64,000 nucleotides of DNA. Origin: an uncultured Bacilli bacterium. Lineage in GTDB: Bacteria > Bacillota_I > Bacilli_A > RF39 > UBA660. Where the stretch lies: contig CAJTRV010000004.1 of assembly GCA_910578855.1 (NCBI GenBank), positions 5,551 through 69,550 of the forward strand. The letters are read 5' to 3'. How positions within the stretch are numbered: position 1 is the first letter of the stretch; each line of letters starts with the position of its first letter. This document shows, piece by piece, positions 53,854 to 62,840 of this stretch. The notes beneath the pieces were generated by a model. That model saw nothing but the letters and a program-made list of their open reading frames with translations. It was not told the DNA's origin and did no database searches. Made by a program: the position numbers and the translations under genes.

Positions 53854-54230
53854 AATTTTTCTCCTAACATTATTTCCATAATTTCTTGAATTCGATTAAA
53901 GTGACCATTTAGATAATGATACCCAATTAATGCTTCTAAACCAGTTGATTCTTTATAAGTTACAATGTCAGTATGCTTAGGATGACGAGATCCTTTATGA
54001 TTCCTGGCACGTTTCACAATCTGAATCTCTTCGGTTGTTAATGATTCCTGATCTAGTAACATTTTTAAATAACGACTTTGGGCTTTGGCACTAACATATT
54101 GAACAGCTTCTTTCTGAAGATCATTCACTTTACAAAGACCTTTTTTTAATAACAGAGTCCGAATAACAACTTCATAAATACTATCACCAACATAAGCCAA
54201 CGCCAAAACATTTAGGCAATCTGTTTTCAT
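53823..54230 (-). CDS. mrnC: Mini-ribonuclease 3
   Basis: LALAYVGDSIYE RNase III-like motif. 135 aa. Confidence 0.8.
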   Translation of the reverse strand: MKTDCLNVLALAYVGDSIYEVVIRTLLLKKGLCKVNDLQKEAVQYVSAKAQSRYLKMLLDQESLTTEEIQIVKRARNHKGSRHPKHTDIVTYKESTGLEALIGYHYLNGHFNRIQEIMEIMLGEKLCISMEKMSH

Positions 54231-55108
54231 ACAAGTTCCTCAATTCGATCAAAGGTAATTCCTTTTATTAGACCACTTTTCATATCGTTTAAAATGAGAT
54301 TCATCACGCGGTCATAATCAATTTCCCCACCCTGAATCATACATCCTCGACGTTTACCAATGATATCCAACGTGTTAACCATATCTTCTTCATCAATAGT
54401 CGTAATTCCATAACGTGATTCTAACTCCTGAGGATAATAAGTATATAGCATGTTCAAAATGTAACAGACCACATCATAAATAGGCAATACTTCCTCTTTA
54501 ATTGCCGTTAAACTTGCGAGATTAAGGGCAATAGTTTGATCATCAAACTTCGGCCATAGTACCCCTGGTGAGTCTAACAATTCAAGACGCTGATTGATGC
54601 GAATCCAATCCAATGACTTCGTCACTCCAGGACGGTTTCCAACATTGGCAACCTTTTTTCCAACTAAGCGATTGATCAATGTGCTCTTTCCAACATTGGG
54701 AATCCCGACAACAAGGACCCGAATACGTCTTGATTTCATTCCTCTAGCAATCATATCATCCATCTTATCTTGCATCATCGCTTCAGTCTTTTTCACTATT
54801 CCGGTTGTACTTTGTTGATGCTCTAAATCAACCCCCATTACTTGATAACCTAGTTGTTCATAATACCGAATCCAGCGCTCTGTTTCTTTTTTATCACATA
54901 GATCCATCTTGGTCATAATTAACAACTTCGGCTTATTTCCAATAATCGATTCAATATCTTGAATCTTTGATGAGTATGGCATCCGAGCATCGATTACTTC
55001 ATAAACAACATCAATAACACTCATTTTTTCCTTCATAATTCGCTTGGCTTTCGCCATGTGACCGGGATACCAGTTGATTGTCGTATTTTGTCCTTTATTG
55101 TCGTTCAT
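54227..55108 (-). CDS. rbgA: Ribosome biogenesis GTPase A
   Basis: WYPGHMAKAKR, DARMP and NVGKSTLINRL circularly permuted GTPase motifs. The start MNDNKG has an AGGAAGTG RBS. Confidence 0.85.
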   Translation of the reverse strand: MNDNKGQNTTINWYPGHMAKAKRIMKEKMSVIDVVYEVIDARMPYSSKIQDIESIIGNKPKLLIMTKMDLCDKKETERWIRYYEQLGYQVMGVDLEHQQSTTGIVKKTEAMMQDKMDDMIARGMKSRRIRVLVVGIPNVGKSTLINRLVGKKVANVGNRPGVTKSLDWIRINQRLELLDSPGVLWPKFDDQTIALNLASLTAIKEEVLPIYDVVCYILNMLYTYYPQELESRYGITTIDEEDMVNTLDIIGKRRGCMIQGGEIDYDRVMNLILNDMKSGLIKGITFDRIEELV

Positions 55109-55559
55109 TTGTTTCACTTCCTTTAGATTTATTTTTATATTTAACATATTCTTCAATTTTTTTATTATAGTTCTTTAAATCTTCTACAAATTGAGGCTTA
55201 AATTGATTTAAATAATCAATGATTAAATCAGCATATTCATCAATATTTTCATCATCAACTATATCTATGAGATATTTATTGATTCCTTTTTTAGTATTTA
55301 TTCTTTCTACATAAAAGGCTAACAAATTAGTTGGACCTATTTTTTCTTTTGCTGATAAAACAATAGAAATCAAATTTTCTCTTGATGCATAATATCTCGG
55401 TTTAAATCCATTTGACCTAGAAAATAATATCAAAGTACAACCAATAAATAATTTATCTGAACCATTTTTAGGAAATGTTTTGTTTGCAAATTCAATTAAA
55501 CTTTCTGTATTACCCTGTTCGTAATCATCATATAGTTCCATTAAAATTCTATTTATCAT
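55095..55559 (-). CDS. Hypothetical protein (cassette 1 variable partner B1); its stop overlaps the rbgA start by 14 nt
   Basis: 154 aa. The C-terminal residues KSKGSETNERQ are encoded by the rbgA RBS region. Confidence 0.5.
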   Translation of the reverse strand: MINRILMELYDDYEQGNTESLIEFANKTFPKNGSDKLFIGCTLILFSRSNGFKPRYYASRENLISIVLSAKEKIGPTNLLAFYVERINTKKGINKYLIDIVDDENIDEYADLIIDYLNQFKPQFVEDLKNYNKKIEEYVKYKNKSKGSETNERQ

Positions 55560-55569
55560 TTTATCTCCT

Positions 55570-55845
55570 CTATTTATATAGACTTTTTATAACTCTATTA
55601 ATGCAATCTTTGGCACTTCTGTTATTATTTGAAAAACTAATTTTTACTAATGTCCCATTTACTTTAAAAGCATATGGATTCTTTGTGGAAGCAATAAAAT
55701 CCAATATTCTTTCATTACTAGGTTTTCTTCTATCTATTTTTATATTTGTTATTTCATCCACATCTTCTAATTTTACATCATCAAGATTTACATTTCTACA
55801 TCTTTCTAATTTTTCTGCTAATTCTTTAATATTATATTTATTCAT
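55570..55845 (-). CDS. Small conserved protein A1 (paralogue of 57697-57996)
   Basis: MNKYNIKELAEKLERCRNVNLDDVKLEDVDEI...: 47 of the first 49 aa are identical to A2. Confidence 0.55.
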   Translation of the reverse strand: MNKYNIKELAEKLERCRNVNLDDVKLEDVDEITNIKIDRRKPSNERILDFIASTKNPYAFKVNGTLVKISFSNNNRSAKDCINRVIKSLYK

Positions 55846-55927
55846 AAAATCACACTCCATATTAATTATAAAATCAAATACAATTAATGTTAAATGTGCA
55901 ATTTTTTATTATAAATGATAATCTTTA

Positions 55928-56953
55928 CTAATCTTTATTATTTTCTGAAGTTTCTAATAATTTTGTACTTTCAATAAATTTATCGAAGTCAGAAATATAT
56001 AATTGGTCTTGTTTTTCCTTAAACTTATCATACTCTTTATATGCAAGTTCTTGAGCCACTTTATGAGATATTTTTCCTGCATCATGCAGTATTTCTTGCC
56101 CATTAAATTGTAAAAACGCATCCAATTTTTCTACCCAATCTTTCATTGTCATCGCATTATGATTTTCTGCTTGTAATTCAGCATAATCTAAATACATAGT
56201 AACTATTCTATTTAAGTTTTTTAATTCTTTTTCTGTCAAATAATTTTTAGCAATATCAACATCATATTTATAAATCGTTCCATCAGGAGAACCTGTCCAA
56301 TTTGTTAAACCCATATTGTCTTTTTCTGAATCAACTCTATTATAAATAATCTCTGCAGCAGTATTACCAGTGACTGAATAATGAAGTTTATTCTGCACAG
56401 TTTTAAAAAAAGTTTTAGTGATTTCTGAATCTTTATCATAATCAACACTACAAGATGAATATATATCTGTTATCTTTTGGTAAAATCTTCTTTCACTAGA
56501 ACGAATATTTCTAATTCTTTCTAGTGTTCTTTCAAAATAATCTTCTCCAAAAATATAATTTGGATTTTTTAATCTCTCGTCATCCATAACAACGCCAGTA
56601 ATTAAGTATTCTTTTAGAACTTTTGTTGCCCATATTCTAAATTGCGTTGCTTTTTTGGAATTAACTCTATAACCTACAGCAATAATCATATCTAAATTGT
56701 ATATTTTAGATTTTCTTCCACCTGTACTTTCGTCGGAAATTCCGACAGAAGTTTCTTCCTTAAGTTCACCACTATTTAATATATTATTAATATGTTCTGT
56801 TATGGTACTTCTACCTACTCCAAATAATTCAGCAATCAAATTTTGCGTCAACCAAATATCATTATTAATTAATAATACATTCACTTTGATATCATTATTA
56901 TCATCACGATATATTAAAAAGTCGTGGGTAGTTATTTGTAAATTATTTTTCAT
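55928..56953 (-). CDS. RhuM-family (virulence protein RhuM / Bro-N-like) protein
   Basis: WLTQ..IAELFG...TI.EHI.NI...GEL...S...YNLDMIIAVGYRVNSKKATQFRIWATKVLKEYL...DDERLKN matches the RhuM family core. Confidence 0.7.
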   Translation of the reverse strand: MKNNLQITTHDFLIYRDDNNDIKVNVLLINNDIWLTQNLIAELFGVGRSTITEHINNILNSGELKEETSVGISDESTGGRKSKIYNLDMIIAVGYRVNSKKATQFRIWATKVLKEYLITGVVMDDERLKNPNYIFGEDYFERTLERIRNIRSSERRFYQKITDIYSSCSVDYDKDSEITKTFFKTVQNKLHYSVTGNTAAEIIYNRVDSEKDNMGLTNWTGSPDGTIYKYDVDIAKNYLTEKELKNLNRIVTMYLDYAELQAENHNAMTMKDWVEKLDAFLQFNGQEILHDAGKISHKVAQELAYKEYDKFKEKQDQLYISDFDKFIESTKLLETSENNKD

Positions 56954-57215
56954 TTATTTTCACCGCTTTCTTATGTTCTTAAATGTCGTAATCACCTATC
57001 TAATTTCTATTATAAATAGCGCAAAAATTACTATATTTTTATGAATTTTTATTGTTTTTTATCATTTTTTAATGAAAACATGCAAGATATAAATTGGATA
57101 GTTTCCTTTATTTATAAGGGTTTAAGGGTGTTCTTAATTAAATCGTAATCAACCAGTTTATGTTTGCCTGATTTTGTCGATTTTCATTATTCATTTATTT
57201 CACTTCCTTCAATTC
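56954..57215. repeat. Inter-cassette repeat R1 with a leader/promoter region plus a pseudo-copy of the rbgA RBS + 18 codons (MNNENRQNQANINWLITI*)
   Basis: About 85% identical to 58900-59160. The pseudo-rbgA start lies at 57138-57194 on the minus strand. Confidence 0.7.
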
Positions 57216-57704
57216 AATATTATTTTCTAATAAAACGCTTTCTAATGTTTCATTTTCGTTTATAATATATAAGTTCTCATAATTTCTTTGCAAACAATCC
57301 TCATAGAATGGAACAAATACATTTCCCAAGCCACTAATAAAACTTTCATTATTACCTCGATTTATACACTTTCTCTTTACATCTTCCCAATTATTAATAT
57401 TAGGATATGCTATACTGTATTTAATATTATTTTTATCGAAATAATCGAAGTGTTCTGGTTTTAATTGAACTAAAACAACATCATATTCCTTTATAGCCAT
57501 TCGAATGGCTTTATAGTAATTCTTTGGCCATTCACTATTTACTTCTCTTTTCGTTCCTTTTCTTGCTTCAACAGGTACATTTTCAAGATTAGTATTAATA
57601 TATTTAAAATTACTCGATTCTAAATCAATTACATTCCTATATTTTTTACCCAAAATGCTTTTTCCACACGTTGCAAATCCTGCAATTATTATTCCCTTAG
57701 CCAT
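57195..57704 (-). CDS. Small P-loop NTPase/kinase (zeta-toxin/AAA_33-like)
   Basis: GFATCGKS Walker A. 169 aa. The C-terminal LKEVK* is encoded by the RBS copy of R1. Confidence 0.6.
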   Translation of the reverse strand: MAKGIIIAGFATCGKSILGKKYRNVIDLESSNFKYINTNLENVPVEARKGTKREVNSEWPKNYYKAIRMAIKEYDVVLVQLKPEHFDYFDKNNIKYSIAYPNINNWEDVKRKCINRGNNESFISGLGNVFVPFYEDCLQRNYENLYIINENETLESVLLENNIELKEVK

Positions 57705-57996
57705 TATTTACCTCTTGTCTATATAAATTTTCTAAAATTTTAGTTAAACAATCATCTGCAGTTAAATTACTATTTTCTGAAAATCTTATTCTAACTAATT
57801 TCCCATTGACTTTAAATATATATGGGTTCTTTTTCTTCATTACAAACGCTAATATTCTTTCATTACTAGGTTTTCTTCTATCTATTTTTATATCTGTTAT
57901 TTCATCCACATCTTCTAATTTTACATCGTCAAGATTTACATTTCTACATCTCTCTAATTTTTCTGCTAATTCTTTAATATTATGTTTATTCATATT
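57697..57996 (-). CDS. Small conserved protein A2 (paralogue of A1); overlaps the downstream kinase gene by 8 nt
   Basis: MNKHNIKELAEKLERCRNV...: the 5' half is ~95% identical to A1 at the nucleotide level. The C-terminal third is divergent. Confidence 0.55.
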   Translation of the reverse strand, partial: NMNKHNIKELAEKLERCRNVNLDDVKLEDVDEITDIKIDRRKPSNERILAFVMKKKNPYIFKVNGKLVRIRFSENSNLTADDCLTKILENLYRQEVNNG

Positions 57997-58056
57997 ATAC
58001 CTTCTTTCTATAATAATTTTATTATTTAGAAAGAAATAACACAAATGTGCAAAATA

Positions 58057-58899
58057 CTAGATATTATCTTTTTCTCCTAATAGTTTTATCTTTTCTGCAT
58101 TATTAAGTATATCAAGTTGATACTTAGCAATGCTACTTAATATTTCAAATCTTTCTTCTTTGCTTTTTCCTTCTTTAATTAGTTCTGCATTATGTGATTC
58201 TAAATTAGATAATACTGTTAATTCATTTATCGATGCATAATCTCTAACATTTGAGTTTTTTGCTAAATTCGGATTAAGTTCTCTCCATCTTTTAGCAGTT
58301 GTGTTAAATAAGGCAACATTTAAAATATCTGCTTCTTCTGCATACTTTAACCATTCTCTATCTTTATAATAATCATTATCAGGTAATATATAATTTTTAA
58401 TTGCATCTGTATGAATAAGATAATTATTTTTGGTTAAGATTCTTTTTATATCCCATTCCCTATTTTGATTTTCTAACTCTTTTAGTCTTTCAAATTCTTT
58501 TATCAAATATAGTTTAAAAACCGGACTAATAGAAGATGCAAATTCAAAAGCAATGTCTTTATGAGCATAAGTTCCACCATATTTTCCACGCTTCGAATAT
58601 ATCCCAATTGCATTTGTTTTACTACACCATTCTGTAACACTTAGTGTAAAAGTATGAAGTCCTGCCTCACTTTTAAACCCGTCGAATTCGACGGAATTAA
58701 AATTTGGATTGTAAATTGACTCCCAAGTACCTAAAAATTCTAAAGTAATTCTATTTCTTAACCAATTTCTGATAACATCATCTGATGTAGATTTTCCTTC
58801 TTTAAACTTGGTAAAATCAGAAATACAAATATAATCGCTATCATTTATATTTGTTATGTTCACTTTAATATTTTGAACTTCAATTATTTTGTTTGGCAT
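58057..58899 (-). CDS. KilA-N domain protein
   Basis: IRNWLRNRITLEFLGTWESIYNPNF...GGTYAHKDIAFEFASSISPVFKLYLIKEFERLKE matches the KilA-N family. Confidence 0.7.
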   Translation of the reverse strand: MPNKIIEVQNIKVNITNINDSDYICISDFTKFKEGKSTSDDVIRNWLRNRITLEFLGTWESIYNPNFNSVEFDGFKSEAGLHTFTLSVTEWCSKTNAIGIYSKRGKYGGTYAHKDIAFEFASSISPVFKLYLIKEFERLKELENQNREWDIKRILTKNNYLIHTDAIKNYILPDNDYYKDREWLKYAEEADILNVALFNTTAKRWRELNPNLAKNSNVRDYASINELTVLSNLESHNAELIKEGKSKEERFEILSSIAKYQLDILNNAEKIKLLGEKDNI

Positions 58900-59160
58900 A
58901 TATTCGCCTCTTTTCCATGTCCTTAAAATTCGTAATCACCTATCTAATTCTTATAATAAATAATACCAAAATTATTAGTTTTTATATTTTTAATTATTTT
59001 TTAATGAAAATATGCAAGATCTAATCTAGATAATTTTCTTTATTTATAAGGGTTTAATGGTATTCTTAATTAAATCGTAATCAGCCAGTTTATGTTTGCC
59101 TGATTTTGTCGATTTTCATTATTCATTTGTTTCACTTCCTTTATTATTTAACATTGAGAA
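58900..59160. repeat. Inter-cassette repeat R2 (pseudo-rbgA start at 59070-59126 on the minus strand)
   Basis: Homologous to R1. Ends with cattattcatttgtttcacttccttta, identical to the real rbgA RBS region. Confidence 0.7.
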
Positions 59161-59312
59161 TTTAAAAAATTTGCAATTTGTTCTAAATTTTTAAATATTT
59201 TTCCATCATTTCTTATAACTATTCCTCTTGCACCATATCTCATTCTAGGCTCATTCATTTCAATCATACTTTCGCCTAAATCTTCATCAGTTATTTTACA
59301 TATTAATTTCAT
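59148..59312 (-). pseudogene. 54-aa ORF, probable truncated remnant (NUDIX-like N-terminus?)
   Basis: MKLICKITDEDLGESMIEMNEPRMRYGARGIVIRNDGKIF...: it terminates inside R2. Confidence 0.25.
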
Positions 59313-59338
59313 TAATATCATCTCGCTTTCATTTTATA

Positions 59339-59863
59339 TTACAACTTGTATTCTTTTATCTCACAATTCTTCAATCCACGATTTAAAAACCAACCATCAT
59401 TAATGCCATCAAAATATGCACTAAAAGCTTTTGAAACACCACTATGTGCAACAATTAAAACACTTTTATAATTTTGAGTTTTAAGTTCATCTAAAAAATT
59501 ATATATTCTATCAAAAAAGTCTTTTATATTTTCAGAGGTTCCATATTGAATTGTTGTATTATAATTCCAATATTCATCACGATTAGTTATTTCAAGAGGT
59601 TTACCACTTAAATCTCCACAACTTCTTTCTTGAATTCTATCATCAATAATAATTTCATTATTATTAGCATTAATAATATTAGCTGTGTGTTTTGCCCTAA
59701 TTAAAGGTGAAGAAATTATAATATCAAAGTTTATATCTTTAATTTTGTCTCTTAATTCTTCTGCTTGACTTATTCCAAGTTCAGTTAAATCTTCATCTTT
59801 TGTATTATATTGTTTCAATGCATTATGAGGTACTTCACCATGTCTTACTATATATATTTTCAT
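59339..59863 (-). CDS. Histidine phosphatase family (phosphoglycerate-mutase-like) protein
   Basis: IVRHGE catalytic motif and AHSG. Confidence 0.7.
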   Translation of the reverse strand: MKIYIVRHGEVPHNALKQYNTKDEDLTELGISQAEELRDKIKDINFDIIISSPLIRAKHTANIINANNNEIIIDDRIQERSCGDLSGKPLEITNRDEYWNYNTTIQYGTSENIKDFFDRIYNFLDELKTQNYKSVLIVAHSGVSKAFSAYFDGINDGWFLNRGLKNCEIKEYKL

Positions 59864-60084
59864 TTATTGACTCCTTTTTTATAGAATTTTTATAGTAACA
59901 TTTTATCATCGAGGATATATATTTATTTTATTATTGATACCATTATATTAAAATCATACTCATTTTTACTATTTTTATCTGTTTCTAAGGTTATATGATT
60001 ATTCTCTGTTTTTCCTTTAAAATAAAGCAAATCAGCTATTTTAAATTGTCGTGTCATTTCGCGTACACAAGCCAGGAAGTCAGG

Positions 60085-60710
60085 CCCATATGTTCTTTAT
60101 TTGAATCAACTCTATTATATATAATTTCTGCTGTTTGTTTTGATACAGCAAAATGCATTTTGTTTTGTACTTTTTTAAAAAATTCAATTGATATTGGAGA
60201 TTTAAAATCATAGTCAATACTTGTAGCATATATATCTGTTATTTTTTGATAAAATCGCCTTTCTGATAACCTTATTTCTCTAATTTCTTCTAATAATTTT
60301 TCAAAATAATCTTCTCCAAAAATATAATTTGGATTTTTTTATCTTTCGTCATCCATAACAGCATCATTAATTAGATATTCTTTTAAAACCTTTGTTGCCC
60401 ATATTTTAAATTCTGTTGCTTTTTTAGAATTGATCCTGTATCCAACTACAATAATTACATCTAAATTATATATTTTGGTTTTATATTTTTTACCATCAGA
60501 GGCAGTTATCGAGGATTCCTCGATAACTGAATCCTGATTTAATGCATTATCTTTAGAAATTGCAGATTTTTTTATTTCCTTTTCATATAAATCTCTAGCA
60601 CCTTTAGCAACTCCTCCGCCTCTTTTTGCTACATTTAAATTTTCTTTTAAACCTTGCGGATGTTCTTCTCTTGCAATATCTCGTGTTGCAATCTCTCCTA
60701 TATTTGTTCA
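60085..60710 (-). pseudogene. Degenerate second copy of a RhuM-family gene (middle/C-terminal part, frameshifted)
   Basis: Nucleotide similarity to 56230-56760 (shared strings such as tcttctccaaaaatataatttggattttt, tgttgcccatatt). Absent from the ORF track because of stops. Confidence 0.55.
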
Positions 60711-60717
60711 CTAGCTT

Positions 60718-61263
60718 TCATTCCAGACCACCCCTTATAGATTTCATTGGTTTGGTTATGCCTCCTTCTTTCCAAACATCTGTAAGTTTAAATCTATCTA
60801 CAACCCCCATTAGTCTTGCCTTAATCCATTCATCAGAGTACCCTTTATTACGATAATAATTTACTGCTCTATTTATTGCAATTTCAGGATCAAATACTTC
60901 ATCAATCCTCTCACTACCAAGACTCGCTAACCAAACTTTAAATGGTTCGGCCTTAGGGCTAGAAACTGATTCAATTAATCTTAATATTCCATTTGTATCT
61001 AAAGTATCAGTTATACGATTTTTACCATCCCGGGCCTCCATTTTCAACTGCACGATTTCTTCGTGCAGTTCACTTCCTTCATAAATTAATCTTCTTTTTA
61101 AACCGCTCCAATAATTTCTTGGGATTTTTGCTTCAGTTAATACACTTATTACATCAGCAACGCTAAAATAATACTCTTCTTTTTCACTATCCCAAATGCT
61201 TCTTATTTCTTTACCTTCAAATAAATTTGATATTGTTTCTAATTTGTTGTTCAAATATAACAC
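60718..61263 (-). CDS. DinD/Bro-N-like protein (truncated relative to ~270 aa family members)
   Basis: FEGKEIRSIWDSEKEEYYFSVADVISVL resembles the DinD N-terminus (FEEIRHYGTEGQEFWSARELAPLL). Confidence 0.5.
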   Translation of the reverse strand: MLYLNNKLETISNLFEGKEIRSIWDSEKEEYYFSVADVISVLTEAKIPRNYWSGLKRRLIYEGSELHEEIVQLKMEARDGKNRITDTLDTNGILRLIESVSSPKAEPFKVWLASLGSERIDEVFDPEIAINRAVNYYRNKGYSDEWIKARLMGVVDRFKLTDVWKEGGITKPMKSIRGGLE

Positions 61264-61440
61264 CTCTTTTCTATGGTCTTAAATGCCGTAATCATCTTTC
61301 TAATTCTTAAATAAAAATATGGAAAATTTAAAATCGTACAACCTCCTTATTTATAGGGATTTACTTAAGAGTGCAATAAATCGTAATCAAACAGTTAATT
61401 CTGACTGATGAAAAACTTTTTTGATTACTTTCGCTATTCT
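61264..61440. repeat. Inter-cassette repeat R3 (diverged copy; pseudo-rbgA start decayed)
   Basis: Shares ttaaatg(t/c)cgtaatca, tttaag.accat and ttgattacgattta blocks with R1/R2. Confidence 0.5.
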
Positions 61441-61503
61441 TTTTTCTTGTCTCATTTTTCCCTTTTGATATATATCCATATTTTTCACTTTCTTTTCAAT
61501 AGT

Positions 61504-62064
61504 TTAAAGTTTTTTACCCATTACAATGGGTCTATCATCATAAATATGAATTCTGTTATTTATATCACTAATTAATGCAACAAGTTTTCTAGGATTTTCT
61601 ACTCCTTCAAAACTCATTCCATTTTTTATTTGTTCAATTAAATTATTAGCATAAAAATTAAAAGATATATCTCCATAATTATTTTTTTCTCTTGCAATTC
61701 CAATATGTTCTATATCAGATATATTTTCTATCCTAAATCCATTTTTAGAATTATATAGAGCTATCCTTTTATTGGTAATAAAATATTCATTATTTTTCTT
61801 TTTATATTTTAAGAATATATTATAAACTAATCCATAAATTAAACAAATTGTTAATATGCCCAAAGTAAGAAAAATTATCAAAATTTCAAAATTTAGTATT
61901 TCCCCACTTTTTATACCTATTATAATTAATATCCAAAATAATAACAATACGGCAAAACCTAATAAAAATCTACCATATTGTTTACTAGTCTTACTAACGT
62001 TTGAAACACCATAGAATAATATTTTTTCATTCTCTTCCAATTTATTTATAAACTCATTTTTCAT
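61504..62064 (-). CDS. Membrane protein with a bacterial PH (bPH_2-like) domain
   Basis: Two TM helices then a YFITNKRIALY motif. Confidence 0.5.
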   Translation of the reverse strand: MKNEFINKLEENEKILFYGVSNVSKTSKQYGRFLLGFAVLLLFWILIIIGIKSGEILNFEILIIFLTLGILTICLIYGLVYNIFLKYKKKNNEYFITNKRIALYNSKNGFRIENISDIEHIGIAREKNNYGDISFNFYANNLIEQIKNGMSFEGVENPRKLVALISDINNRIHIYDDRPIVMGKKL

Positions 62065-62201
62065 TTATCTCTCTCCTTACAATTTATTAAATATAATACC
62101 ATTTAATAAAAGAGAATTCCTTTATTAAAATCATTCTAGTTTTATCCACTATAGATTCCTCATAAGATAACCATTTATTCATTTCGAAAATGCATTTATT
62201 T

Positions 62202-62840
62202 TTATTTAAAGATTACATATGGAATGCCCATTTTATGATAAACATCATAAGCTCGTGGCCACGAGAACATTCGGGCAATTAATAAATTATAAAGTTCATC
62301 AAACATGATGATAGAACACAATGTAATTGAAAGCATTAAAAATAATTTTTTATTCATCCGTTTCGCAAGAAAAAAACACATAGGAATTATGACATACATC
62401 AACAATAAACTAGATAACCCAAAGAACATAACACTTCTTAAACAAACAAAACCATGAATGTTTCCAAAGTTTAAAATTTCCGAATTATAATCCCAACAAC
62501 GCATTCCATTTCCAATGATATACATGCCCAAACCTGATATATATTCGAGAATCCCAGTTGCAAAAAAACTAATTAAAAATACCCAGAATGGTTTTTTTCG
62601 ATGCTTGTAAGTTAATAGATAAATCATAATTGAACCTGTCGCATATATATTAATCCATGGTAAGAAATTACCACCTCGCCAATAAAATTGTTTCATACCA
62701 CCATTAAAATAATAAAATATAAATTCATAGATCCAACCAAAAATTCCGGTGATAACGATTAACAGACAACAAATTCCTAGCATCGTCCATTTATCAAACG
62801 AATGATTATTTTCTATATAATGTTTATACCATTTCTTCAT
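62202..62840 (-). CDS. Polytopic membrane protein (possibly the putative ABC-transporter type IV / DUF1113 family)
   Basis: 6 predicted TM helices. Family assignment is from memory only. Confidence 0.4.
   Translation of the reverse strand: MKKWYKHYIENNHSFDKWTMLGICCLLIVITGIFGWIYEFIFYYFNGGMKQFYWRGGNFLPWINIYATGSIMIYLLTYKHRKKPFWVFLISFFATGILEYISGLGMYIIGNGMRCWDYNSEILNFGNIHGFVCLRSVMFFGLSSLLLMYVIIPMCFFLAKRMNKKLFLMLSITLCSIIMFDELYNLLIARMFSWPRAYDVYHKMGIPYVIFK

What the first reader, a model, noticed from the sequence alone, without database searches (positions are those of the whole stretch)
55095..61440. Tandem cassette array at the 5' end of rbgA; every cassette ends in a pseudo-copy of the rbgA RBS + first 18 codons
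Three 170-260 bp repeats (R1 56954-57215, R2 58900-59160, R3 61264-61440) separate three gene cassettes. R1 and R2 end with aaggaagtgaaa(c/t)aaATGAATAATGAAAATCGACAAAATCAGGCAAACATAAACTGG(T/C)TGATTACGATTTAA, which encodes MNNENRQNQANINWLITI*. This mimics the true RbgA N-terminus (MNDNKGQNTTINWYPGHM), and the similarity continues ~20 nt upstream of the RBS. R3 keeps the same blocks but has lost the ATG. This is the footprint expected from serial site-specific integration into an attB that overlaps the rbgA start, with each event regenerating the target and the oldest copy lying farthest from rbgA. Alternatively it could be a homologous-recombination cassette-exchange hotspot. No integrase is present inside the array. 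The arrangement looks like a cluster of attC sites lacking an integrase, but with an entirely different, gene-5'-end-derived repeat.
Basis: seen in the sequence. Interest (0 to 1): 0.85.

Follow-up and report, generated by a model that had tools for sequence, protein, structure and literature searches.

The report
Mobile gene cassettes stacked at rbgA
Three small mobile gene cassettes with no recombinase of their own are stacked head to tail in the first codons of the essential gene rbgA; each brings a replacement start for that gene, and they belong to a widespread, apparently undescribed cassette family of gut bacteria that a dedicated serine recombinase probably moves.

Summary

**What is in the window.** Window 55069-61389 (minus strand) holds three co-oriented cassettes of 2083, 1932 and 2306 bp. 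They are inserted after the Trp codon of the conserved I-N-W-Y-P-G-H-M start of rbgA. Each cassette has this layout:
- an arm that starts TGATTACGATTT;
- a Bro-N, KilA-N or RhuM gene;
- usually a DUF6870 gene;
- one cargo gene;
- a "cap" (ribosome-binding site, ATG and 13-14 codons ending in I-N-W).

The last cap is the working start of rbgA. The earlier caps survive as 18-codon stubs (MNNENRQNQANINWLITI*).

**Evidence from other genomes.**
- The same arm follows I-N-W codons at 110 of 110 matches, in 98 stretches of DNA from uncultured gut bacteria.
- Whole recombinase-less cassettes are 98-99.6% identical between species whose flanks are only 73-79% identical. The identity breaks exactly at the junctions.
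- Two assemblies of one species differ by extra cassettes inserted exactly after AACTGGT.

**The enzyme.** The window has no recombinase. A clade of about 405-residue large serine recombinases sits in such arrays next to rbgA in 6 of 6 members sampled, which makes it the probable enzyme (inferred).

**State of this array.** It is identical in three independent mouse-gut assemblies, and its oldest cassette has decayed, so it looks sedentary here.

**Closest analogues.** SCC elements at rlmH, the ICE Tn5253 at the rbgA 5' end, and integrase-less integron arrays.

The parts
54227..55108 (-). rbgA (ribosome biogenesis GTPase A), 293 aa from the ATG at 55108. Its first 13 codons (MNDNKGQNTTINW) are supplied by cassette 1.
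   Evidence: ORF list. The motif W-Y-P-G-H-M was located. The same cap sequence occurs as a dead stub in other species (L021, L052, L093).
55069..55123 (-). Working cap: ribosome-binding site AAGGAAGTGAAA, ATG, and 13 codons ending in ATCAACTGGT. The junction with native rbgA lies between 55069 and 55068.
   Evidence: Homology to the internal cassette in L084 ends exactly here.
55069..57151 (-). Cassette 1 (2083 bp, nearest rbgA): arm R1, RhuM gene 55928-56953, DUF6870 gene 55570-55845, 154-aa cargo 55095-55559, cap.
   Evidence: Pfam, PADLOC PDC-S05, boundaries.
56954..57151 (-). Arm R1: starts TGATTACGATTTAATTAAG at 57151, then TTATAAATAAAG, an AT-rich stretch, and a second TGATTACGA box at 56986-56994.
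57138..57209 (-). Stub 1: the displaced cap of cassette 2 (ribosome-binding site plus MNNENRQNQANINW) read into the arm (LITI*).
57152..59083 (-). Cassette 2 (1932 bp): arm R2 58900-59083, KilA-N gene 58057-58899, DUF6870 gene 57697-57993, 169-aa cargo with a Walker-A-like GKS motif (seen by eye) 57195-57704, cap.
   Evidence: PDC-S22. 92-93% nucleotide identity to cassettes in L068, L003 and L082, starting at the junction.
59070..59141 (-). Stub 2: the displaced cap of cassette 3 (MNNENRQNQANINWLITI*).
59084..61389 (-). Cassette 3 (2306 bp, farthest from rbgA, decayed): arm R3 61264-61389, Bro-N pseudogene 60507-61263, RhuM fragment 60072-60575, histidine phosphatase 59339-59863, 57-aa ORF 59148-59321, cap.
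61384..61492 (-). Distal stub: a cap of another type (MDIYQKGKMRQEKRIAKVIKKVFHQSELTV*) joined to R3 at ...AACTGTT|TGATTACG.

Best explanation
**What it is.** The segment is a head-to-tail array of three non-autonomous mobile cassettes. Each was inserted by site-specific recombination into the 5' end of rbgA, at the AAYTGGT of the Trp codon in the conserved I-N-W-(Y/F)-P-G-H-M motif.

**Cassette layout.** A cassette runs from an attachment-site arm (TGATTACGATTT...) to a cap.
- The arm region very probably holds the cassette's promoter.
- The cap holds a ribosome-binding site, an ATG and 13-14 RbgA-like codons ending in I-N-W.

**What insertion does.**
- The incoming cap fuses in frame to the rest of rbgA, so the essential gene stays intact.
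- Because all cassettes point the same way as rbgA, the gene stays transcribed.
- The previous cap becomes joined to the newcomer's arm and is left as an 18-codon stub.
- The cap plus the rest of rbgA recreates the target. The next cassette therefore lands next to rbgA, and older cassettes are pushed away.

**The enzyme.** The most likely recombinase is a clade of about 405-residue large serine recombinases. Autonomous cassettes of the same family encode it in other genomes. The three cassettes here lack it and would need it supplied in trans.

**State in this species.** The array is probably frozen.

**Cargo.** The payloads are candidate anti-phage genes (RhuM, KilA-N and Bro-N proteins, which match PADLOC candidates PDC-S05, S22 and S13) plus small nucleotide or metabolite enzymes.

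**Shown and inferred.**
- Shown: the unit boundaries, horizontal mobility, insertion polymorphism at the exact junction, and the association of the recombinase clade with rbgA arrays.
- Inferred: that this recombinase catalyses the reaction, that it acts in trans, the exact crossover base pair, and any defence function.
For: **Anatomy and significance.**

**Generality.**
- The arm motif occurs in 98 stretches of DNA from uncultured gut bacteria. It is preceded by I-N-W codons at 110 of 110 matches.
- Every tile that also holds a real rbgA (34 by tblastn; 35 by the motif scan) has the arm upstream of it and co-oriented.
- 70 complete cassettes measure 0.5-4.2 kb.
- 60 of the 70 start with a Bro-N, KilA-N or RhuM gene, and 33 hold a DUF6870 gene.

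**Mobility.**
- The window's cassette proteins are up to 98-99% identical in genomes whose RbgA is at most 64% identical.
- Whole recombinase-less cassettes are 97.9-99.6% identical junction to junction, while the flanks are 73-79% identical.
- The same cassette is internal in L089 and terminal in L093.
- Homology to the L084 cassette ends exactly at the window's rbgA junction.

**Insertion polymorphism.** L189 and L191 diverge exactly after AACTGGT.

**Empty sites.** Many relatives have a native promoter and start with no arm.

**Recombinase.**
- Homologues with Resolvase, Recombinase and Zn_ribbon_recom domains lie inside arrays in 8 of 98 tiles.
- A clade of 400-410-residue proteins was found.
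- All 6 members sampled (44-71% identical to the query) lie co-oriented, 0-2 genes upstream of rbgA.
- The predicted fold matches the SPbeta, PhiC31, Bxb1 and Listeria serine integrases.
- The catalytic serine is invariant.

**No other recombinase seen.** No tyrosine-recombinase motif occurs in any ORF of the 98 tiles.

**Age order.** The distal cassette is pseudogenised.
Against: - The window, and as far as can be seen this species' array, has no recombinase. The rest of the genome could not be searched.
- The array is 100% identical in three independent mouse-gut assemblies. Strains that are 99.5% identical share its distal part. There is thus no sign of current activity here.
- The recombinase link is guilt by association. 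No circular form, attP-only molecule or biochemical test was available.
- The arm was found in no phage or plasmid record and no viral contig, so the transfer vehicle is unknown.
- A one-sided similarity between the two recombining sites (cap resembling the host 5' end) is typical of tyrosine integrases such as that of Tn5253. It is unusual for large serine recombinases.
- Cargo genes swap at a second sharp boundary just after the DUF6870 stop codon. Recombination at TGGT does not explain this.
Confidence: 0.78

Rival explanations
1. The cassettes are moved by a tyrosine integrase of the Tn5252/Tn5253 type. They would be cis- or trans-mobilisable remnants that exploit the known ICE attachment site in the rbgA 5' end.
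For: - Tn5253 integrates after nt 20 of the rbgA coding sequence, downstream of a conserved 11-bp core. It restores the 5' end from its own attTn, with attL equal to attB and attR equal to attTn.
- Streptococcal ICEs with tyrosine integrases target the rbgA 5' end.
- One-sided identity between cap and host start is typical of such systems.
- An imperfect inverted repeat, AAATATCAA / TTACGATTT, around a 7-bp CTGGTTG can be read at the junction (my reading of the consensus).
Against: - No tyrosine-recombinase motif occurs in any ORF of the 98 tiles (a regex test, so not exhaustive).
- The only Phage_integrase genes seen in the longer loci are about 300-residue genes a few genes downstream of rbgA, beyond topA. 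Their place in the conserved housekeeping block suggests chromosomal Xer-type genes (my reading).
- No conjugation module lies in any array.
- A serine recombinase clade is specifically linked to the arrays (6 of 6).
Confidence: 0.08
2. There is no dedicated recombinase. The locus is a hotspot where cassettes are exchanged by homologous recombination, for example after DNA uptake, using the conserved caps, arms and rbgA itself as flanks.
For: - Caps are 75-90% alike and arms are highly conserved, which offers homology.
- Modules are shuffled: the same backbone carries different cargo and the reverse.
- L067 and L093 differ within the arm itself.
- This species' array is static.
Against: - More than 150 distinct junctions fall at the same nucleotide.
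- Identity cliffs sit at the junction itself rather than somewhere within the homologous flanks.
- The flanking rbgA is only 73-78% identical between the genomes that share 99% identical cassettes. That is poor substrate for homologous recombination.
- A dedicated recombinase clade is present in the arrays.
Confidence: 0.1
3. The repeats are only duplicated promoter or leader regions of paralogous gene modules that arose by local tandem duplication, and nothing is mobile.
For: R1 and R2 are about 85-90% identical, and the DUF6870 genes of cassettes 1 and 2 are 88-95% identical over 150-226 nt. This could suggest local duplication.
Against: - The first genes of the three cassettes belong to different families.
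- Closer relatives of each cassette are found in other species than in the neighbouring cassette.
- Cross-species identity cliffs and an insertion polymorphism are seen.
Confidence: 0.02

Closest known systems
Staphylococcal cassette chromosome (SCC/SCCmec) elements and tandem SCC-like or pseudo-SCC cassettes at rlmH
   Same: - Large serine recombinases (Ccr) insert cassettes at one end of a conserved ribosome-related gene.
- Cassettes accumulate in tandem, separated by repeats of the attachment site.
- Many cassettes lack a recombinase and are moved in trans.
- Tandem cassettes are enriched in anti-phage genes (PMC11470126).
   Different: - The target is the 5' end of rbgA, not the 3' end of rlmH, so each cassette must carry a replacement ribosome-binding site and start codons.
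- The cassettes are far smaller (0.5-4 kb).
- The recombinase is a different, shorter clade (about 405 residues, with no long coiled coil in the model).
- The hosts are uncultured gut bacteria labelled Bacilli or Tenericutes, not staphylococci.
ICE Tn5253/Tn5252 and other streptococcal ICEs integrated in the 5' end of rbgA
   Same: - The target gene and region are the same: integration after nt 20 of the coding sequence, downstream of a conserved 11-bp core.
- The element-borne site restores the rbgA 5' end.
- The host copy is left at the far end (PMC8571831; PMC4701971).
   Different: - Those are large conjugative elements with a tyrosine integrase.
- Here the units are about 2-kb cassettes with no conjugation genes.
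- No tyrosine integrase was found, and a serine recombinase clade is associated instead.
- Tandem arrays of many units are the rule here.
Integrons, sedentary chromosomal integrons, and clusters of attC sites lacking an integrase (CALINs)
   Same: - Arrays of small, co-oriented cassettes.
- The newest cassette lies next to the insertion point.
- Arrays persist and decay without a recombinase.
- Cassettes carry defence candidates and GNAT-type genes.
   Different: - There is no IntI tyrosine recombinase.
- There are no attC palindromes and no GTTRRRY core.
- Each cassette appears to carry its own promoter region, and usually 2-3 genes.
- The insertion point lies inside an essential gene.
Genomic islands that target the 5' end of dusA, and cis-mobilisable elements (CIMEs) of streptococcal ICEs
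   Same: - Integration into the 5' end of a conserved gene, with the element supplying a new 5' end (dusA islands; from background knowledge, with PMC8409611 seen only in the listing).
- Elements flanked by attachment sites but lacking recombination genes (CIMEs; from background knowledge).
   Different: - Both are tyrosine-integrase systems.
- Neither has a conserved arm plus Bro-N/KilA-N/RhuM plus DUF6870 backbone.
- Neither forms multi-cassette arrays of this kind.

Membership tests
Integron / CALIN | attC sites: imperfect palindromes (R''-L''...L'-R') with a GTTRRRY core at cassette boundaries | tested here: not met
   No inverted repeat lies within any R among the 25 longest inverted-repeat pairs listed. 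The junction reads GGT|TGATTAC, and GTTGATT does not fit GTTRRRY. The conserved TTATAAATAAAG block shows no compensating changes in the sequences listed (by eye).
Integron / CALIN | An IntI-type tyrosine recombinase next to attI in complete members | tested here: not met
   No tyrosine-recombinase motif in any ORF of the 98 tiles. Complete arrays instead carry serine recombinases.
SCC elements | Integration at the attachment site in the 3' end of rlmH (orfX) | tested here: not met
   All junctions lie in the 5' end of rbgA.
SCC elements | Mobilised by Ccr-type large serine recombinases; recombinase-less cassettes in tandem | tested here: inconclusive
   The recombinase has the same three Pfam domains, and recombinase-less tandem cassettes are present. 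Its closest solved relatives are TnpX and SPbeta SprA. No direct comparison with Ccr proteins was made.
Tn5252/Tn5253-type ICE | Integration after the first ~20 nt of rbgA, with restoration of the 5' end by the element's own site | tested here: met
   The junction follows codon 13-14 (I-N-W), and the cap restores the start. Equivalence with the Tn5253 position rests on the paper's text (nt 20 in pneumococcus, nt 17 in E. faecalis). The 11-bp core sequence itself could not be read.
Tn5252/Tn5253-type ICE | Tyrosine integrase and a conjugation module | tested here: not met
   Neither is present in the window or in the related arrays.
Integrative elements of large serine recombinases | A recombinase with Resolvase, Recombinase and zinc-ribbon domains and a catalytic serine | tested here: met
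   Met in related arrays. Not met in the window itself, which has no such gene.
Integrative elements of large serine recombinases | Recombination between short attP and attB sites at a central dinucleotide, with abrupt loss of similarity at the junction | tested here: inconclusive
   The junctions are abrupt, and ATCAAC-TG-GTTGAT is a 14-bp palindrome centred on TG (my reading). But the left halves of the two partner sites resemble each other over about 65 nt, which is atypical. The crossover base pair cannot be located from sequence.
Integrative elements of large serine recombinases | A coiled-coil motif in the zinc-ribbon domain that controls direction | tested here: not met
   The AlphaFold model of P0032 has only short helices (355-369 and 379-385) after the zinc ribbon, and the protein ends at 402. 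The alignment to SPbeta SprA stops at about residue 390 of 545. This is a model-based result, with pLDDT of about 85 in this stretch.
Cis-mobilisable elements (CIME-like, non-autonomous) | Flanked by attachment sites, with no recombinase or transfer genes of their own | tested here: met
   All three window cassettes are bounded by junctions and hold no recombinase.

The most novel reading that the evidence does not exclude
This could be a serine-recombinase counterpart of the integron.
- A minimal large serine recombinase without a coiled coil would insert and remove small, promoter-bearing cassettes at the Trp codon of rbgA.
- Every cassette ends in a mimic of the rbgA start. Each internal junction is therefore equivalent to the donor site, and the rbgA junction to the target site.
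- Cassettes could then be captured, excised and reshuffled without a separate directionality factor.
- The arrays would serve as exchangeable banks of anti-phage genes (RhuM, KilA-N or Bro-N proteins with DUF6870) across many uncultured gut Bacilli.

No description of such a system was found in the searchable literature.
Probability: 0.4. Interest if true: 0.85.

Novelty: new variant of a known kind. Interest (0 to 1): 0.7.

Why it matters
- **A further cassette platform.** Alongside integrons and SCC elements, it would be another platform for stacking and exchanging small gene cassettes. It operates in a large group of uncultured gut bacteria that cannot yet be studied genetically.
- **Parasitising an essential gene.** It shows a neat way to use an essential gene as a landing pad: every cassette carries a spare start for that gene.
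- **Possible tool.** It points to a compact (about 405-residue) site-specific serine recombinase with a defined, highly conserved natural target. That could be useful as an integration tool for Bacilli.
- **Function of the payload.** It links RhuM, KilA-N, Bro-N and DUF6870 genes, whose functions are unknown, to a mobile and probably defence-related context.
- **Annotation.** The first 13 or so codons and the promoter of rbgA in many genomes are of foreign origin. The 18-codon ORFs upstream are scars, not genes.

Tried and rejected
- **Structured RNA.** No Rfam match at E <= 1 on either strand of 54800-62300. Rejected.
- **Promoter and terminator scan.** Fewer promoter-like sites than in shuffles, and not informative in this AT-rich DNA.
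- **Phage or plasmid origin of the arm.** No match in 2.9 million viral contigs, in phage records or in plasmid records. DUF6870 has only two weak phage hits.
- **Tyrosine integrase.** A motif search of all ORFs in the 98 tiles found none. Ten large unassigned ORFs near arrays were read by eye and none looked like a recombinase (my reading, no family search was run on them).
- **A fourth repeat or the native rbgA start upstream of R3.** Nothing found, even with filters off.
- **Exact-protein look-up of RbgA (293 aa).** Not on record, probably because gene callers used a longer start (306 aa in L202).
- **Conspecific variation.** None found. The metagenome scan with RbgA gave one short identical contig (L099) and otherwise relatives at or below 65% identity.
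- **Co-variation of the two TGATTACGA boxes.** A shuffling control showed no excess. A cleaner tally gave only a few concordant variants.
- **MAFFT alignment of the rbgA 5' end with R1-R3.** It misplaced the rbgA sequence. Pairwise local alignment was used instead.

Full report
**1. The observation**

All genes of the region lie on the minus strand. rbgA runs from 55108 to 54227. Upstream of it, a block of 24-30% G+C (55.1-62 kb) interrupts DNA of about 36% G+C.

A profile of the repeat finds exactly three copies in the 64-kb window: 56958-57180, 58898-59112 and 61238-61405.

R1 and R2 each encode MNNENRQNQANINWLITI*. The 20-mer that spans the ribosome-binding site and start codon of rbgA recurs in R1 and R2 with 0-1 mismatch. 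None is expected by chance.

Local alignment shows similarity to the real rbgA 5' end from about -40 through AACTGG(T). The repeats then continue as TGATTACGATTTAATTAAG..., while rbgA continues as ATCCCGGTCACATGG.

R3 keeps the junction (...AACTGTT|TGATTACGATTT) but is preceded by another kind of start, MDIYQKGKMRQEKR.... That kind is the working RbgA start in other genomes (L102, L114, L115, L120).

**2. Anatomy**

Three units lie between junctions, at 55069-57151, 57152-59083 and 59084-61389 (2083, 1932 and 2306 bp). In the rbgA direction, each unit has this order:
- the arm, starting TGATTACGATTT;
- a conserved TTATAAATAAAG block;
- an AT-rich stretch;
- a second TGATTACGA box about 157 nt from the first;
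- a first gene, which is RhuM, KilA-N or Bro-N;
- DUF6870 (in cassettes 1 and 2);
- one cargo gene: a 154-aa protein, a 169-aa protein with a Walker-A-like GKS motif (seen by eye), or a histidine phosphatase followed by a 57-aa ORF;
- the cap.

Cassette 3 is decayed. Its Bro-N gene is frame-shifted and is fused to a RhuM fragment.

No recombinase gene is present in the array. No homologue of the serine recombinases described below occurs anywhere in the window.

**3. The same thing elsewhere**

An exact-pattern scan of one genome per species found the arm motif in 98 stretches of DNA from gut metagenome-assembled genomes labelled Bacilli, Tenericutes or Clostridia.
- At all 110 matches the arm is preceded by ...A(T/A)(C/A)AA(C/T)TGGT. 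Usually a ribosome-binding site, an ATG and 10-20 RbgA-like codons come before that.
- Every tile that also holds a real rbgA (34 by tblastn; 35 by the motif scan) has the arm upstream of it and co-oriented.
- In many genomes the array sits between lepB and rbgA, in the conserved rimM-trmD-rplS-lepB-rbgA-rnhB neighbourhood.
- 70 complete cassettes measure 0.5-4.2 kb, most often about 2 kb.
- 60 of the 70 begin with a Bro-N, KilA-N or RhuM gene, and 33 hold DUF6870.
- Cargo includes GNAT acetyltransferases, ASCH domains, a dCMP deaminase, a UDG-like protein, HAD and histidine phosphatases, ParA and ParB, and a reverse transcriptase.
- Some cassettes are just arm, one gene and cap (L045, L056, L073).

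**4. The units are mobile and precisely bounded**

- The window's RhuM, DUF6870 and KilA-N proteins are up to 98-99% identical in genomes whose RbgA is at most 64% identical.
- Whole recombinase-less cassettes are 97.9-99.6% identical from junction to junction between different species-level genomes. The 700 nt of rbgA downstream and the upstream flank are only 73-79% identical.
- The identity starts at TGATTACG and ends at AACTGGT.
- One cassette is internal in L089, where another arm follows it. The same cassette is terminal in L093, where rbgA follows it.
- Homology of the window's cassette-1 cargo to an internal cassette in L084 ends exactly at the window's rbgA junction.
- Two assemblies of one species, L189 and L191, are identical over 14,108 nt apart from one mismatch, as far as ...ATCAACTGGT. 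L189 then reads ATCCGGGTCATATGGC (rbgA). L191 reads TGATTCCGATTTAATTAAG, the arm of at least two further cassettes. The same cap is therefore a working start in one strain and a stub in the other. The additional cassettes lie on the rbgA side.
- Many relatives have an unoccupied site with their own terminator, promoter and start (L100, L101, L104, L121).
- The window's present RbgA start (MNDNKGQN..INW) occurs as a dead stub in other species (L021, L052, L093). It is therefore of cassette origin.

**5. The likely enzyme**

Serine recombinase homologues lie inside arrays in 8 of the 98 tiles, co-oriented with the cassettes. They carry the Resolvase, Recombinase and Zn_ribbon_recom domains.

A search with the 412-aa protein of L010 returned a large clade of uniform length, 400-410 aa.

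I looked up the genomic context of six members that are 44-71% identical to the query. All six lie co-oriented in arrays, 0-2 genes upstream of rbgA, in six different chromosomal backgrounds. One of these backgrounds (L195-L197) shares the window's rbgA-mrnC-rlmB-sigH neighbourhood.

One such cassette (L179) has the canonical arm.

The clade has an invariant catalytic serine. Its catalytic domain is closest to that of TnpX. The AlphaFold model (pLDDT 78.6) matches the SPbeta, PhiC31, Bxb1 and Listeria integrases. After the zinc ribbon only about 50 residues remain, with short helices. The long coiled coil that governs direction in classical serine integrases appears to be missing (this rests on the model).

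No tyrosine-recombinase motif was found in any ORF of the 98 tiles.

The link between this clade and the reaction is an inference from association. It is not a demonstration.

**6. This species**

The window is 100% identical over 12 kb to contigs from two mouse-gut metagenomes and a MAG (L202, L208, L203 = GCA_949738595.1). Strains that are 99.4-99.5% identical share the distal part as far as their contigs reach.

The full neighbourhood is rimM-trmD-x-rplS-lepB-524aa-552aa-212aa-186aa-[array]-rbgA-mrnC-rlmB-sigH-PFOR.

No within-species variation was seen. Together with the missing recombinase and the decayed distal cassette, this indicates a sedentary array.

Another species shows the same pattern. 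Its recombinase-less array is constant in six or more samples, apart from pseudogenisation of a KilA-N gene.

**7. How it most likely works**

*Shown:* the unit boundaries, the regeneration of the target, and the proximal position of the added cassettes.

*Inferred:*
- A circular cassette, whose cap is joined to its arm, recombines with the rbgA 5' end at or next to AAYTGGT.
- The incoming cap becomes the start of rbgA, and the old cap is left joined to the new arm.
- Because every cap mimics the rbgA start, each internal junction resembles the donor site and the rbgA junction resembles the target. A recombinase without directional control could in principle both add and remove cassettes.
- Co-orientation, together with promoter-like sequence in the arm or in the cap region (L108, L179, L195), keeps the essential gene transcribed.
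- Targeting the I-N-W-(Y/F)-P-G-H-M codons, which are highly conserved, would explain the broad host range.

**8. What the cassettes carry**

The RhuM, KilA-N and Bro-N proteins match the PADLOC candidate defence families PDC-S05 (5e-140), PDC-S22 (7e-116) and PDC-S13 (6e-69). These families are candidates, not validated systems.

Cargo next to the recombinase includes a reverse transcriptase and AAA_15/OLD-TOPRIM ATPases.

A defence role is plausible but untested.

**9. Comparison with what is known**

- **Tn5253 and other streptococcal ICEs.** The 5' end of rbgA is an established integration site. Tn5253 integrates after nt 20 of the coding sequence, downstream of a conserved 11-bp core, and restores the start from its own site (PMC8571831). 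Other streptococcal ICEs with tyrosine integrases do the same (PMC4701971). The target, and the trick of replacing the 5' end, are thus not new.
- **SCC.** The closest functional analogue is the SCC system. There, serine recombinases insert cassettes at the end of rlmH, recombinase-less cassettes accumulate in tandem, and defence genes travel with them (PMC11470126).
- **Integrons.** They are an analogy only, because their defining features are absent (see the membership table).
- **Literature.** I found no paper that describes small serine-recombinase cassettes at rbgA, nor any paper that mentions DUF6870. The library covers open-access papers and preprints only.

**10. Open points**

- Cargo genes are exchanged at a second sharp boundary, right after the DUF6870 stop codon.
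- The role of the two TGATTACGA boxes is unknown.
- The low-G+C genes at 61504-62840 have no recognisable arm, and the species' native rbgA start was not found.
- The vehicle for transfer between cells is unknown.

**Verdict**

The finding is real and correctly interpreted in its main lines. It leads to a widespread cassette system that appears to be undescribed. I rate it a new variant of known kinds (SCC-like, at the Tn5253 target). This particular array is an inactive, recombinase-less example.

Noticed in passing
window 61504-62840 (-): Two low-G+C genes lie between the array and chromosomal genes of normal G+C: a 186-aa membrane protein (21-27% G+C) and a 212-aa CmpB-like membrane protein. 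No repeat or stub is detectable next to them. They may be very old cassettes or an unrelated insertion.
   Followed up: partly
window 56986-56994, 58930-58938, 61286-61294 (-), and the same position in most related loci: Every arm holds a second direct copy of the TGATTACGA box, about 157 nt from the junction and just upstream of the first gene. In a few loci both boxes carry the same variant: TGATAACG in L197 and L198, TGATACCG in L090 and L195. Most single-base variants do not co-vary.
   Followed up: partly
window 55570/55571 and 57697-57712 (-); 40 related loci: Backbone homology between cassettes ends right after the DUF6870 stop codon (...AATTTATATAGATAR). Beyond that point the cargo gene differs. 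This is a second, unexplained module boundary.
   Followed up: partly
window 55095-55559 (-): The 154-aa cargo ORF of cassette 1 reads through the rbgA ribosome-binding site and overlaps the first 14 nt of rbgA. Public gene calls give RbgA a 306-aa form that starts inside this ORF (L202).
   Followed up: no
L107, L110, L115, L120, L130, L136, L137, L139, L142: Many metagenome contigs that encode RbgA relatives begin only about 100-170 nt upstream of the Trp codon. Assemblies seem to break at this site repeatedly, as expected if it varies between strains.
   Followed up: no
L010 50-1726; L199 5302-6852: Some arrays hold a second, only distantly related large serine recombinase of 516-558 aa, in addition to the 405-aa type.
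   Followed up: no
L078 1924-3576, L082; L195 4606-6264; L198 9369-10595: Genes next to the 405-aa recombinase include a 550-aa reverse transcriptase (RVT_1), a 552-aa AAA_15/AAA_21 ATPase, and an AAA_15 plus OLD-type TOPRIM protein. These are typical anti-phage gene types.
   Followed up: partly
L017 6241; L072 6362: In high-G+C Clostridia genomes the stub farthest from rbgA, and the DNA upstream of it, are high in G+C (for example MKHIQW after GC-rich sequence, or directly after trmD). This looks like the host's own displaced rbgA start.
   Followed up: no
L190 12343-16400: In one strain of the L189 species the RhuM gene is truncated and is followed by a Mob_Pre relaxase gene and an IS (rve) element. 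Other mobile DNA can therefore land inside these arrays.
   Followed up: no
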